IMG/VR virus record: IMGVR_UViG_2671180378_000024
Direction: 5' to 3' (one strand)
Source of the DNA: a virus
Taxonomy: Duplodnaviria; Heunggongvirae; Uroviricota; Caudoviricetes
DNA: 2,010 nucleotides
The notes below the pieces were generated by a model. That model was not told the DNA's origin, made no database searches, and saw nothing but the letters and a program-made list of their open reading frames with translations. Made by a program: the position numbers and the translations under genes. Positions 1 to 2,010 of the stretch are shown here, one piece after another (positions within the stretch are counted from its first letter, which is position 1; every line of letters begins with the position of its first letter).

Positions 1-72
1 TTGATTTTCAATAACCGTTCTGACATCTTCGTCTTTGACCTCTTTAGAGTAACGTTGGGTTTTTCTGCTCAT
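1..72 (-). CDS. IS3-family transposase OrfA-like protein, 5' end only (continues beyond the left edge of the window)
   Basis: The reverse complement of 1-72 reads ATG AGC AGA AAA ACC CAA CGT TAC TCT AAA GAG GTC AAA GAC ... = MSRKTQRYSKEVKDEDVRTVIENQ. A canonical AAGGAG Shine-Dalgarno sits 6 nt upstream of the ATG (reverse complement of 79-84). The N-terminus resembles IS3-family OrfA helix-turn-helix proteins from memory (pattern MSRKTQRYSKEFKAEAVRTV..). Only 24 codons are visible, so the family call is tentative. Confidence 0.5.
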   Translation of the reverse strand, partial: MSRKTQRYSKEVKDEDVRTVIENQ

Positions 73-136
73 TATTAGCTCCTTCTGATGCCATTCTATT
101 TCAGGAAGGATTGTCCGTTAAACTCAGGCTACCTCA
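1..136 (-). mobile_element. Terminal segment of an IS3-family insertion sequence (inferred left inverted-repeat end near base 136; body extends left of the window)
   Basis: Read in IS orientation, the sequence from base 136 leftwards starts TGAGGTAGCCTGAGTTTAACGG..., a TG-initiated terminus about 64 nt upstream of the OrfA start codon. This spacing is typical of IS3-family left ends. Homology of the adjacent capsid fragment to lambda gpE begins within a few codons to the right of this point, consistent with an insertion junction. The exact boundary is uncertain by roughly 10-20 bp. Confidence 0.45.
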
Positions 137-488
137 CGCCGCAGAACTGGCCTGTAAAAACCTGGGTGAAGTGGTGAGCTTTAAAGGCTATCTGGGCGAT
201 ATTGCCCTTGTCGTCTATTCCGGCAAATACACTGACAGCGACGGCACCGAAAAATATTTCCTTGAGCCTGATTTGCTGGTCCTGGGTAACACCAACAATA
301 AAGGGCTGGTGGCCTATGGTGCGATTATGGATCAGGAAGCGGTCAGAACGGGCGCAACGCAAAACATGTTTTACCCGAAAAACTGGATTGAGGACGGCGA
401 TCCGGCGATTGAGTACGTGCAGACGCACAGCGCACCGCAGCCGGTACCGGCAGATATTCGCAAATTTGTTATCGTCAAAATTGGTTAA
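111..488 (+). pseudogene. Major capsid protein, lambda gpE family, C-terminal remnant (about 115 of about 340 residues), 5' truncated, probably by the IS insertion
   Basis: The translation ..AELACKNLGEVVSFKGYLGDIALVVYSGKYTDSDGTEKYFLEPDLLVLGNTNNKGLVAYGAIMDQEAVRTGATQNMFYPKNWIEDGDPAIEYVQTHSAPQPV.. aligns by eye with the C-terminus of lambda gpE as recalled (..AVKDLGKAVSYKGMYGDVAIVVYSGQYVENGVKKNFLPDNTMVLGNTQARGLRTYGCIQDADAQREGINASARYPKNWVTTGDPAREFTMIQSAPLML..), with roughly half the residues identical, down to the stop. The frame is closed by a TAG at 45-47. The only in-frame start upstream of the homology is a TTG at 111, which lies inside the inferred IS terminus. Homology to gpE begins near base 137-141. 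Confidence 0.75.
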
Positions 489-500
489 CGGGGGGATTCT

Positions 501-836
501 ATGGACACTCCATACATTGAGTTATTTGCAGGTAGTCAGCAGGTATCCACGACGCTGGTACATTTTGCTGCTGATGCTGGCGTTATTCAGGAATTTACCC
601 CGCTGATGCTGGCGGAAAATGGCGAGTTTAAGCCGTGGGATGGTCAGGAATCTGGCAAGGCTGTTTATCTGACCTCGTACCCCGTGGACACGTCGACGCA
701 GAAATCAGCACAGTGCTACAAGACGGGGATATTCAATATTGCCGCCGTTAACTGGCCTGAGAGCGCCGACACCGACGCGAAAAAATGCGCCGCCTTTGCG
801 GGTTCTGGCGTATCCGTTCAGCCGCTGGCGCGATAA
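501..836 (+). CDS. Head decoration protein, lambda gpD family (complete, 111 aa)
   Basis: ATG at 501 preceded by a GGGGGGA Shine-Dalgarno (490-496) with a 4-nt spacer. The translation ..TPLMLAENGEFKPWDGQESGKAVYL..STQKSAQCYKTGIFNIAAVNWPESADTDAKKCAAFAGSGVSV.. aligns with lambda gpD as recalled (..[70 protein letters not shown]). Length matches lambda gpD (110 aa). It starts 12 nt after the capsid-fragment stop. Confidence 0.85.
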   Translation: MDTPYIELFAGSQQVSTTLVHFAADAGVIQEFTPLMLAENGEFKPWDGQESGKAVYLTSYPVDTSTQKSAQCYKTGIFNIAAVNWPESADTDAKKCAAFAGSGVSVQPLAR

Positions 837-848
837 GCAGGGGGAACG

Positions 849-1262
849 ATGGCAACGAATGAAAGTATCATGACGCTACCGCTGGCGAGTAAATTTAAAG
901 CCGAAGCGCGGGCAATGGCTGACAGAGGTTTATCAACCTACGAGGCCGTATATCAACTTAACAGCCTGGAAGAGAAGGACAAGCCGCGCGCTGATGCGAT
1001 TATGGCGCTTCATGAATCTGACGACTATCAGCCGCTGTTACGTGCAATGGCAAACGTGCCTTGTATTGATGTTGATACGGCTAAAAACATCCTGAACATG
1101 ACCATAGAGCAGGAACGCCCGAAGGTTGCACCAGAGCTTACCGCAGCCTTTGAAAACTTTATGGACATGCACAGCCCACAAGCCGTATCAGCTGGCATGG
1201 CATACGATGGCAGAAACCCGGGCGATGACGGCGACATCGATCGCATACTGAAAACCATCTGA
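849..1262 (+). CDS. Hypothetical acidic protein (137 aa), function unknown; co-oriented and translationally close-packed with the gpD-like gene
   Basis: ATG at 849 preceded by an AGGGGGA Shine-Dalgarno (839-845). It starts 12 nt after the gpD-like stop and ends at a TGA (1260-1262), immediately followed by a rho-independent terminator. No in-frame stops; E. coli-like codon usage. The protein has a marked excess of Asp/Glu over Lys/Arg. I do not recognise a family. It is not similar by eye to lambda gpFI, gpW or gpFII as I recall them. Confidence 0.75.
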   Translation: MATNESIMTLPLASKFKAEARAMADRGLSTYEAVYQLNSLEEKDKPRADAIMALHESDDYQPLLRAMANVPCIDVDTAKNILNMTIEQERPKVAPELTAAFENFMDMHSPQAVSAGMAYDGRNPGDDGDIDRILKTI

Positions 1263-1267
1263 GACAA

Positions 1268-1290
1268 GGCCGGAGAAATCCGGCTTTTTT
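1268..1290 (+). terminator. Rho-independent terminator downstream of the capsid-module genes
   Basis: GCCGGA (1269-1274), GAAA loop (1275-1278), TCCGGC (1279-1284), followed by TTTTTT (1285-1290). Begins 6 nt after the ORF3 stop. The T-run is on the + strand only, so it is unidirectional. Confidence 0.7.
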
Positions 1291-1291
1291 G

Positions 1292-1364
1292 CGGGTCCTT
1301 TCCGGCATATGGACCTGTTACGGGGCGGAGACCTCGCGGATTTTCGCTATTTATGAGCCTTTTC
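1292..1364. other. Lambda-type cohesive end site (cos): cosQ-like block, cosN, and the cosN-proximal (I2-like) part of cosB
   Basis: 1292-1305 CGGGTCCTTTCCGG is identical to the lambda cosQ-region motif as recalled, and lies the same 17 nt from the cohesive-end sequence as in lambda. 1335-1364 CGCGGATTTTCGCTATTTATGAGCCTTTTC matches lambda CGCGGGTTTTCGCTATTTATGAAAATTTTC at most positions. Downstream of about 1365 the sequence diverges from lambda cosB. Confidence 0.85.
1323..1334. other. cosN 12-nt cohesive-end sequence GGGCGGAGACCT (lambda: GGGCGGCGACCT); predicted terminase nick sites flank this segment
   Basis: Context TTACG|GGGCGGAGACCT|CGCGGA compared with lambda TTACG|GGGCGGCGACCT|CGCGGG as recalled. 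There is a single C-to-A difference at base 1329, position 7 of the overhang. Nick positions are inferred by analogy, not observed. Confidence 0.8.
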
Positions 1365-1428
1365 AGGGGGGTGGTGGTGGTTTTGTTGTTTGATCTATCT
1401 TTATGAATGAAAAGGGAAAGATGCAAGC

Positions 1429-1466
1429 AATACACCAACCTGAAGCAGTAATTAAGTTGGTGTATT
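1429..1466. repeat. Perfect 11-bp inverted repeat (AATACACCAAC ... GTTGGTGTATT) with 16-bp spacer, ending 1 nt before the terS ATG
   Basis: 1429-1439 AATACACCAAC is the exact reverse complement of 1456-1466 GTTGGTGTATT. It lies between cosB and the first ATG of the Nu1-like ORF. It could be a protein-binding palindrome or an RNA hairpin affecting translation initiation. Confidence 0.5.
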
Positions 1467-1467
1467 A

Positions 1468-2010
1468 ATGAAATCTCATCTGATGAACAAAAAAAACATG
1501 GCGAAAAGCTGCCGTGTAAGTGCGACAGCGTTCGACAAGTGGGGAGTAACTCCCGTTGAGCGTAAAGGCCGTGAGGCGTTTTATGATGTTGCCAGCGTGA
1601 TAGAAAATAGGGTTAACAATGCAATTAGCCAGCTTATAAACGACAAAGGCGAGATTGACGATGATGAACTTTTACGAGTCAGGATCAGATTACTGACAGC
1701 ACAGGCAGAGGCGCAGGAACTTAAAAACGATCGCGATCGCGGTGACGTGATTGATACTGAGTTTTGCCTGTACGCGCTTTCAAAGCTGGCGAGTCAGATT
1801 TCATCAATCATGGACATCCTCCCGCTTACTATGCAAAGGAGCTTCCCACAGATTACCCCCGCCATGCTGGACAGGCTTAAAAGGGAAGTGGTTAAAGCCT
1901 GTAATGCCAGTGCCAGAGTTGCCGACAACCTCCCACAGATACTGGCTGATTACTTGAAAGAAACAACCGGAAACGTACCGGAAAAGTTGCTACAGAAGAA
2001 AGGCGAGTAA
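1468..2010 (+). CDS. terS: Terminase small subunit, lambda Nu1 family (complete, 180 aa; alternative start at 1483)
   Basis: The translation ..NKKNMAKSCRVSATAFDKWGVTPV..LLTAQAEAQELKNDRDRGDVIDTEFCLYALSKLASQISSIMDILPLTMQRSFPQ.. aligns with lambda Nu1 as recalled (MEVNKKQLADIFGASIRTIQNWQEQGMPV..RLTRAQADAQELKNARDSAEVVETAFCTFVLSRIAGEIASILDGLPLSVQRRFPE..). Length matches lambda Nu1 (181 aa). It lies about 135-150 bp downstream of cosN, as Nu1 does in lambda (about 190 bp). Stop TAA at 2008-2010. No obvious Shine-Dalgarno upstream of either candidate ATG. Confidence 0.9.
   Translation: MKSHLMNKKNMAKSCRVSATAFDKWGVTPVERKGREAFYDVASVIENRVNNAISQLINDKGEIDDDELLRVRIRLLTAQAEAQELKNDRDRGDVIDTEFCLYALSKLASQISSIMDILPLTMQRSFPQITPAMLDRLKREVVKACNASARVADNLPQILADYLKETTGNVPEKLLQKKGE

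What the first reader, a model, noticed from the sequence alone, without database searches (positions are those of the whole stretch)
1..488. IS insertion truncating the major capsid gene; possible IS-derived start for the capsid fragment
The minus-strand transposase start at 72 and the TG-initiated terminus inferred near 136 place an IS3-family element inside a gpE-like gene, leaving only its C-terminal third. This would inactivate autonomous head formation by the element, though the gpD-like gene, ORF3, cos and terS appear intact. The only in-frame start for the fragment is a TTG at 111 within the IS end, so a short N-terminally aberrant capsid fragment could still be made. Truncated capsid proteins can in principle interfere with assembly of related incoming phages; this is speculative.
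Basis: partly seen in the sequence, partly recalled or inferred. Interest (0 to 1): 0.45.

Follow-up and report, generated by a model that had tools for sequence, protein, structure and literature searches.

The report
IS600 insertion in a satellite's capsid-like gene
A common jumping gene (IS600) has landed in the capsid-like gene of a small phage-dependent island in an E. coli draft genome; the break is real but ordinary, because the island never builds its own heads and deleting this gene in a close relative caused no defect in the two assays tried.

Summary
Window 1-136 is the left end of IS600 (IS3 family): 131/136 identity, transposase orfA start at 72 on the minus strand, terminal TG at 136. 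From 137 on, the window is 99.9% identical to an intact island in E. coli O26:H11.

IS600 sits after nt 704 of a 1056-nt lambda gpE-like gene, so residues 236-351 remain. The reciprocal junction, found in other public assemblies, shows a 3-bp target duplication (CGC). This indicates a simple transposition.

The window is bases 2-2011 of a draft contig that ends inside the IS, so the sequence cannot be extended leftwards.

The host element is an EcCICFT073-type phage-inducible chromosomal island (PICI). It has no portal, protease, large terminase or tail genes, so it had no "autonomous head formation" to lose. The disrupted gene is 96% identical in protein to EcCICFT073 c1499. Deleting c1499 changed neither lambda interference nor island transfer (Fillol-Salom 2018).

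TTG-111 is the 5'-most in-frame start, not the only one; seven more lie downstream. It is GTG in canonical IS600, has no outward promoter match, and its Shine-Dalgarno-like motif abuts the codon. An interfering capsid fragment is unsupported.

Verdict: an ordinary lineage-specific IS allele of low interest.

The parts
1..136 (-). Left end of IS600 (IS3 family): terminal inverted repeat, 5' leader and the first 24 codons of orfA. The rest of the IS lies beyond the contig end.
   Evidence: 131/136 identity to annotated IS600 copies, with matches ending at 136/137. The window equals bases 2-2011 of contig LOGF01000184.1, which starts inside the IS.
1..72 (-). N-terminal 24 codons of IS600 orfA (MSRKTQRYSKEVKDEDVRTVIENQ). 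The start ATG is at 72-70 and an SD (GAAGGAG) lies at about 85-79.
   Evidence: Translation compared with canonical IS600 orfA, MSRKTQRYSKEFKAEAVRTVLENQ. The four amino-acid differences come from atypical bases at 12, 26, 32 and 39.
93..121 (-). Promoter-like site facing inward, towards the transposase gene (TTAACG-17-TAGAAT). It is the only promoter-like match in the IS end, and none faces the capsid remnant.
   Evidence: same site in a canonical IS600 copy. This is a consensus match only.
110..136 (-). IS600 left terminal inverted repeat (5'-TGAGGTAGCCTGAGTTTAACGGACA...). It is imperfectly matched by the right end, TGAGGTGTACTGGCAATAGCGGACAC.
   Evidence: Ends of a complete IS600 copy read in L004. 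Base 111 (T here, G in all other copies) falls in the conserved CGGACAC block.
137..139 (+). Right-hand copy of the 3-bp target-site duplication, CGC.
   Evidence: The intact gene reads ...GAATC|CGCCGCAG. Left-junction contigs read ...GAATCCGC|TGAGGTGTACTGG. The window reads ...CCTCA|CGCCGCAG.
137..488 (+). 3' remnant of the PICI capsid-homologue gene, a lambda gpE-like orthologue of EcCICFT073 c1499: nt 705-1056, residues 236-351 plus the stop codon.
111..488 (+). Chimeric 125-codon ORF: 9 codons read from the IS end (start TTG-111; codon 9 spans the junction) fused in frame to the capsid remnant. Gene callers call it and GenBank lists it as a hypothetical protein (KYS18445.1, KYW27148.1). 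There is no evidence of expression.
501..836 (+). Head-decoration (lambda gpD-like) gene, intact. It is the orthologue of EcCICFT073 c1500.
   Evidence: Pfam HDPD at 64.8 bits. 38% identical to lambda D. 95.5% identical to the CFT073 protein.
849..1262 (+). ORF3, a conserved 137-aa PICI protein of unknown function, intact.
   Evidence: No Pfam or PDB sequence match. 94% identical to the CFT073 orthologue, with dN/dS 0.21.
1267..1290 (+). Terminator-like hairpin (GCCGGA-GAAA-TCCGGC followed by TTTTTT) after ORF3.
   Evidence: RNA fold of 1256-1300 gives -18.9 kcal/mol. The consensus scan did not report it.
1288..1367 (+). Lambda-like cos site (cosQ and cosN). The cosN 12-mer GGGCGGAGACCT lies at 1323-1334. 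[quoted passage not shown]
   Evidence: 80-column ungapped alignment to the joined lambda ends, 15 mismatches. Homology to EcCICFT073 runs through this site to 1364. Both cos sites were shown functional in PMC6092414.
1468..2010 (+). Full-length Nu1-like small terminase gene (180 aa). It occupies the slot that holds rppA (c1503) in EcCICFT073.
   Evidence: Pfam Phage_Nu1 at 81.3 bits. 36% identical to lambda Nu1 over 180 columns. No similarity to the 144-aa CFT073 RppA.

Best explanation
A copy of IS600 (1264 bp in the reference copy used here; IS3 family) transposed into codon 235-236 of the lambda-gpE-like capsid-homologue gene of an EcCICFT073-type PICI. The island is integrated between roxA and phoQ in one E. 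coli lineage. The IS is oriented opposite to the island's late genes, so its left end and orfA start abut the 3' remnant of the gene.

The insertion duplicated the 3-bp target CGC and split the gene into two parts. One is a 5' part of residues 1-235 plus six IS-encoded codons, 241 aa in all, which keeps its native start. The other is a 3' part of residues 236-351 that has lost its start. It can be read only as a 125-codon chimeric ORF from a fortuitous TTG (GTG in canonical IS600) inside the IS terminal repeat.

The result is a simple loss-of-function allele of an accessory PICI gene. The island still depends on a lambdoid helper phage for capsids, tails and TerL, as it always did. Its cos site and terS are untouched, so mobilisation should at most suffer from polarity on the downstream D-like gene and ORF3.

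Shown: the identity of the IS, the exact breakpoint, the target duplication, the gene content of the island, and orthology to c1499. Inferred: that both junctions lie in the same genomes, that the IS is complete, and that the phenotype is mild.
For: IS identity and boundary.

Breakpoint at nt 704/705 of the intact 1056-nt gene.

Reciprocal junction. The predicted protein for a 3-bp duplication (capsid 1-235 + AEVYWQ) exists exactly in the public collection, while the predictions for 0, 2, 4, 5 and 6 bp do not. Seven shown places (L005-L011; 24 carrier contigs were read) read GGTTCAGAATCCGC|TGAGGTGTACTGG, followed by up to 140 nt of error-free IS600 right end. Other assemblies have contigs that stop at nt 704-706 of the gene. 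The two junction proteins are each seen on 19 contigs.

IS600 makes 3-bp duplications. GCG flanks the copy in ninF of strain E2865.

Satellite nature. The gene lists of the intact island in O26 11368, of L005 and of CFT073 lack portal, protease, terL and tail genes.

Orthology. 96.3% protein identity to EcCICFT073 c1499 at the same chromosomal site and in the same gene order.

Dispensability. Deleting c1499 or c1500 did not restore lambda plaquing and did not affect island transfer, and the island is packaged in phage-sized capsids (PMC6092414; PMC6739421).
Against: No single contig spans the IS. Its completeness, and the contiguity of the two junctions in the source genome (GCA_001606815.1), are therefore inferred. 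The left-junction contigs I could read come from other assemblies.

The gene is not junk. It is full length in 598 of 601 complete E. coli genomes that carry it, and dN/dS between the O26 and CFT073 alleles is 0.06. It must have a selected function that the published assays did not reveal, so "mild consequence" may be wrong under some helper phage or condition.

Polarity on downstream genes was not measurable here.
Confidence: 0.9

Rival explanations
1. The IS-capsid junction is an assembly artefact. IS reads were wrongly joined to the end of a contig that really breaks for another reason, and the capsid gene is intact in the organism.
For: The window lies at the very end of a draft contig. 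Its IS part carries five bases seen in no other IS600 copy, four of them G>T, which look like end-of-contig errors.
Against: The same chimeric 125-aa ORF occurs on 19 contigs from NCBI assemblies. The reciprocal junction, with the exact 3-bp duplication, occurs in independent NCBI and Logan assemblies. Dozens of further assemblies break at nt 704-706 of the gene. A chimera would not produce a matching target duplication.
Confidence: 0.02
2. The two junctions belong to an IS600-mediated rearrangement rather than a simple insertion. This could be an inversion or deletion between two IS copies, or a composite structure, in which case the island is split or partly lost in the source genome.
For: IS600 is multicopy in these genomes, with up to 43 places per genome. 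Drafts cannot show contiguity. Left-junction contigs were not recovered from the very assembly that gave the window.
Against: Not one target base is lost and 3 bp are duplicated, which is the signature of a primary transposition. The left part of the island from roxA and int onwards, and the right part through to phoQ and icd, keep their native chromosomal flanks (L005; L003).
Confidence: 0.05
3. The insertion creates a functional product. The 125-aa chimeric C-terminal fragment or the 241-aa N-terminal fragment is made and poisons capsid assembly of incoming lambdoid phages.
For: An ORF with a start codon and an SD-like GGAAGGA exists at 103-113. The N-terminal fragment keeps the native expression signals. 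The allele is found in many isolates, so it is at least not strongly counter-selected.
Against: The scan found no plus-strand promoter match in the IS end. The SD-like motif ends immediately before the start codon, which is suboptimal spacing. TTG is a weak start codon, though canonical IS600 has GTG here. A C-terminal third of a capsid protein is unlikely to fold alone (inference). Even the full-length orthologue shows no interference phenotype: interference in EcCICFT073 maps to rppA, not c1499. Spread of the allele is explained by clonal descent.
Confidence: 0.03

Closest known systems
IS600 (IS3 family insertion sequence of Shigella and E. coli)
   Same: The left terminal repeat, leader and orfA start match at 131/136. 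The terminal dinucleotide is TG. The target duplication is 3 bp. The right end in sister contigs is identical to canonical IS600.
   Different: Five atypical bases (12, 26, 32, 39, 111) are found in no other copy searched. Only 136 nt of the element are present in the window.
EcCICFT073, the prototype Gram-negative cos-type PICI (Fillol-Salom et al. 2018, 2019)
   Same: The chromosomal site next to phoQ is the same. The gene order 68-aa ORF, capsid homologue (c1499), decoration homologue (c1500), 137-aa ORF, cos is the same. These proteins are 94-96% identical and the DNA is 95% identical up to window 1364. A second inverted cos lies downstream in both.
   Different: Here the capsid homologue is split by IS600. 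The slot after cos holds a full-length Nu1-like TerS (180 aa) instead of RppA (144 aa).
Lambda gpE major capsid protein (Pfam PF03864)
   Same: The intact island protein is 43.6% identical to gpE over 328 residues. The remnant is 47% identical to gpE 229-341.
   Different: It is encoded by a satellite that lacks the partner head genes (portal B, protease C, scaffold Nu3). Its role is unknown, and in this window it is truncated.
Capsid-forming PICIs (cf-PICIs; Alqurainy et al., bioRxiv 10.1101/2022.09.08.507074)
   Same: Both are PICIs that carry a capsid-protein gene and a small terminase gene.
   Different: By that paper's abstract, cf-PICIs encode all the proteins needed to make their own capsids. 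This island has only the capsid-like, decoration-like and TerS genes, so it is not a cf-PICI.

Membership tests
IS600 / IS3 family | Terminal inverted repeats beginning 5'-TG, matching the IS600 ends | tested here: met
   Window 136-110 (minus strand) reads TGAGGTAGCCTGAGTTTAACGGACA. Overall identity to annotated IS600 is 131/136.
IS600 / IS3 family | orfA (HTH) followed by orfB (DDE), expressed as OrfAB by a programmed -1 frameshift | not testable with these tools
   Only the first 24 codons of orfA are in the window and the contig ends there. Canonical copies are annotated with a programmed frameshift.
IS600 / IS3 family | 3-bp target-site duplication | tested here: met
   CGC lies on both sides: window 137-139, and the left-junction contigs L005-L011. 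Control: GCG flanks the IS600 in ninF of strain E2865.
Lambda gpE-like major capsid protein (PF03864) | Pfam match above the gathering score | tested here: met
   The remnant scores 60.7 bits against 22.9, on profile positions 228-328/329. The intact orthologue scores 172 bits over positions 14-328.
Lambda gpE-like major capsid protein (PF03864) | Complete reading frame | tested here: not met
   Only residues 236-351 of 351 remain in the window.
PICI (EcCICFT073 type) | Integrase at one end, own replication module, cos or terS, about 10-15 kb, and no lysis, tail, portal or TerL genes | tested here: met
   Gene tables of the 99.9%-identical intact island (L001), of the left half in a lineage with the insertion (L005) and of EcCICFT073 (L014).
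PICI (EcCICFT073 type) | Induction, replication and high-frequency transfer by a helper phage | not testable with these tools
   Shown experimentally only for EcCICFT073 (PMC6092414).
Capsid-forming PICI (cf-PICI) | Full set of head-assembly and packaging genes. My reading of the abstract's "all the proteins" is portal, protease or scaffold, capsid, TerS, TerL and connectors. | tested here: not met
   Only capsid-like, decoration-like and TerS genes are present.
Rpp (redirecting phage packaging) proteins | A protein of 139-154 aa after cos, homologous to RppA, RppB or RppC | tested here: not met
   The gene after cos encodes a 180-aa Phage_Nu1 protein. BLASTP to CFT073 RppA found nothing at E<=1, and there was no PDB sequence hit at E<=0.01.

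The most novel reading that the evidence does not exclude
The capsid homologue of EcCICFT073-type PICIs is under strong purifying selection (dN/dS 0.06) and is full length in 598 of 601 complete genomes that carry it. Yet it has no known function, and deleting it had no effect in the published assays. The most novel reading not excluded is that this IS600 allele is selected rather than neutral. One of the two truncated products, more plausibly the 241-aa N-terminal fragment with its native start than the 125-aa chimeric ORF, could act as a dominant-negative decoy against lambdoid capsid assembly. Alternatively, loss of the gene could change helper range. Either way, the lineage would be a natural knock-out that exposes the gene's hidden role.
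Probability: 0.04. Interest if true: 0.5.

Novelty: already known. Interest (0 to 1): 0.1.

Why it matters
It matters little. IS600, the EcCICFT073-type PICI family, its capsid-like gene and its cos sites are all described, and an IS hit in an accessory gene is routine genome decay. The only residual value is practical. Isolates with this allele are natural knock-outs of a conserved PICI gene whose function is still unknown. The case also shows that a chimeric ORF at a contig end can enter protein databases as a "hypothetical protein".

Tried and rejected
1. Exact-pattern scans for the right junction (AGGCTACCTCACGCCGCAGAACTGG) in genome contigs and in metagenome contigs found nothing. No complete E. 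coli genome covers the junction: 0 records cover at least 80% of window 1-260. A single sequence spanning the IS could therefore not be obtained.

2. The 92% matches of window 1-162 in K-12 and other strains suggested the IS might extend past 136. The site is the degenerate IS600-like remnant next to IS30 near fec, and the extra bases are a low-identity BLAST extension. Rejected.

3. I considered that the host element is a defective lambdoid prophage or a cf-PICI capable of head formation. The gene tables reject this.

4. I considered that the gene after cos is an Rpp. It is rejected on Pfam Nu1 membership, its length and the absence of similarity to RppA.

5. I looked for a more similar IS600 variant in plasmids, including Shigella pINV, and in phages. 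The best identity stays at 96.3%.

6. PDB sequence searches with TerS and ORF3 gave no hits.

7. A literature search for IS600 together with PICI found nothing relevant.

8. I could not retrieve the other 18 right-junction contigs to see whether they share the five odd IS bases, because the look-up tool collapses them into one place.

Full report
**What the window is.** The 2010-base window is identical to bases 2-2011 of the draft contig LOGF01000184.1 of an E. coli assembly, GCA_001606815.1. It therefore sits at the very end of a contig. This is why the insertion sequence is cut off at base 1 and why the sequence cannot simply be extended leftwards.

**The observation.** Megablast splits the window cleanly.
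- Bases 1-136 (or 137) match thousands of IS600 copies at 96.3% identity. These lie in E. coli chromosomes, E. coli and Shigella plasmids and Stx phages.
- Bases 137-2010 match an island in O26:H11 and related genomes at 99.9%. The genes there are annotated major capsid protein, head decoration protein, hypothetical protein and terminase small subunit.

Aligned to a complete annotated IS600 in strain E2865, the window carries the IS left end. On the minus strand this is the terminal repeat 5'-TGAGGTAGCCTGAGTTTAACGGACA, the leader with an inward promoter-like site at 121-93, an SD, and the orfA start at 72-70.

In the intact island of O26:H11 strain 11368, window base 137 corresponds to nt 705 of the 1056-nt capsid-homologue gene. 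Residues 236-351 of 351 are left. The remnant hits Pfam Phage_cap_E and is 47% identical to lambda gpE 229-341.

**The other side of the insertion.** No complete E. coli genome, species-representative genome or JGI metagenome contig contains the junction. I therefore predicted the protein that the 5' part of the gene would encode when fused to the IS600 right end, for target duplications of 0 to 6 bp.
- The 3-bp prediction (capsid 1-235 + AEVYWQ, 241 aa) exists in the public protein collection, on 19 contigs. That is the same number as for the 125-aa right-junction ORF.
- A 235-aa form also exists. It turned out to come from contigs that stop at nt 704-706 of the gene, exactly at the insertion point.

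The contigs carrying the 241-aa protein read ...GGTTCAGAATCCGC|TGAGGTGTACTGG..., followed by up to 140 nt of error-free IS600 right end. With the window's ...CCTCA|CGCCGCAG, the target CGC is duplicated and no base is lost. This is the signature of a primary IS600 transposition. The control copy in ninF of E2865 is flanked by GCG.

L005 also shows that the left part of the island is in place. It runs from pepT, roxA and int through the replication genes to the capsid 5' part. L003 shows the right part running into phoQ, phoP, purB and on to icd.

That both junctions lie in the same genomes, and that the IS between them is complete, is inferred and not shown.

**What the host element is.** The intact relative lies between roxA and phoQ. 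Its genes are:
- an integrase and a small HTH regulator;
- an Icd-like gene and a RepA-type helicase;
- SSB and PerC;
- a 68-aa ORF, the capsid homologue, the decoration homologue and a 137-aa ORF;
- cos, a Nu1-like TerS and a 93-aa ORF.

There is no portal, protease or scaffold, large terminase, head-completion, tail or lysis gene.

E. coli CFT073 carries the prototype PICI EcCICFT073 at the same site with the same order. The capsid homologue is 96.3% identical to c1499, the decoration protein 95.5% to c1500 and ORF3 94%. DNA identity is 95% up to window 1364.

The cos site aligns to the joined ends of lambda over 80 ungapped columns with 15 mismatches. The cosN 12-mer at 1323-1334 differs from lambda's at one base.

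**Consequences.** For EcCICFT073, deleting c1499 or c1500 neither restored lambda plaque formation nor affected transfer of the island, and the island is packaged in phage-sized capsids (PMC6092414; PMC6739421). Interference maps to rppA (c1503).

The element is a satellite that never made heads on its own, and in the best-studied relative the gene is dispensable for the two phenotypes tested.

The gene is nevertheless not decaying in general. It is full length in 598 of 601 complete genomes that carry it. dN/dS between the O26 and CFT073 alleles is 0.06. Its real function is unknown, and this allele is a genuine loss of function of a selected gene.

None of the 601 complete genomes that carry the gene has this insertion. 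It marks one clone, represented by dozens of draft assemblies.

**The "IS-derived start".** The ORF 111-488 exists and is called by gene finders. GenBank lists it as a hypothetical protein.
- TTG-111 is its first start codon, but seven further in-frame start codons follow: GTG 171, 174, 309 and 417, TTG 273, and ATG 327 and 366.
- The SD-like GGAAGGA (104-110) ends directly at the start codon.
- The scan finds no promoter-like site on the plus strand in the IS end. Any transcript would therefore have to read through the IS antisense from the island's own promoter. That strand of IS600 shows only two weak terminator-like hairpins, no more than in shuffled sequence.
- Base 111 is one of five bases (12, 26, 32 and 111 G>T; 39 A>C) that differ from every other IS600 copy searched. 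They all lie within 112 nt of the contig end, and four are G>T, so they may be assembly or sequencing errors. With the canonical G the codon would be GTG.

The more plausible truncated product is the 241-aa N-terminal fragment, which retains the native start. Nothing supports an interfering role for either fragment.

**Comparison and verdict.** This is IS600. The ends, the orfA start and the 3-bp duplication were tested and met, while the frameshift and DDE domain could not be tested. It sits inside a member of the EcCICFT073-type PICI family, whose gene content, site and cos were met, while helper dependence could not be tested.
- It is not a cf-PICI, because the head-gene set is not met.
- Its post-cos gene is not an Rpp but a full-length Nu1-like TerS.

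Everything involved is already described, and the specific allele is a routine IS hit. Interest is low (0.1). The residual value is that such isolates are natural knock-outs of a conserved PICI gene of unknown function.

Noticed in passing
window 12, 26, 32, 39, 111: Five bases in the IS600 end differ from every other IS600 copy found (best identity 96.3% everywhere). Four are G>T, and all lie within 112 nt of the contig end. They change four of the first 24 orfA residues and one base of the conserved CGGACAC block of the terminal repeat. One of them creates the 'TTG' at 111, which is GTG in canonical IS600. They are probably end-of-contig errors, though a private mutated copy is possible.
   Followed up: partly
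window 1365-2010, compared with L014 7500-8100: Homology to EcCICFT073 stops at window 1364, just after cosN. The slot that holds rppA (144 aa) in CFT073 holds a full-length lambda-Nu1-like TerS here (180 aa, 36% identical to Nu1 end to end). Sibling islands thus appear to swap a cosB-plus-specificity-protein cassette. PICIs with terS homologues are mentioned in PMC6092414.
   Followed up: partly
L003 about 2160-2240, minus strand (just beyond the window end); also L001 about 14032-14072 and L014 about 8277-8316: A second lambda-like cos lies in inverted orientation just downstream of terS, with a cosN identical to lambda's (GGGCGGCGACCT). The terS or rpp cassette is therefore bracketed by inverted cos sites. 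The existence of two functional cos sites, cos1 and cos2, is already published for EcCICFT073.
   Followed up: yes
L001 11297-12352 (the intact gene) and proteins P0003, P0007, P0021: Other truncated forms of the same capsid homologue occur in other lineages: a 145-aa C-terminal form on 35 contigs and a 126-aa N-terminal form on 9 contigs. Yet the gene is full length in 598 of 601 complete genomes, with dN/dS 0.06. It is conserved but of unknown function.
   Followed up: partly
window 1267-1290: A clear hairpin followed by a T-run (GCCGGA GAAA TCCGGC TTTTTT) lies after ORF3 and immediately before cosQ. The consensus terminator scan did not report it, although the fold gives -18.9 kcal/mol for 1256-1300. 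It suggests terS is transcribed separately from the capsid-D-ORF3 unit, which would shield terS from polarity of the IS.
   Followed up: partly
window 111-488: The chimeric IS-capsid ORF has been deposited in GenBank as 'hypothetical protein' (KYS18445.1, KYW27148.1). It is an annotation artefact of an IS-split gene at a contig end.
   Followed up: yes
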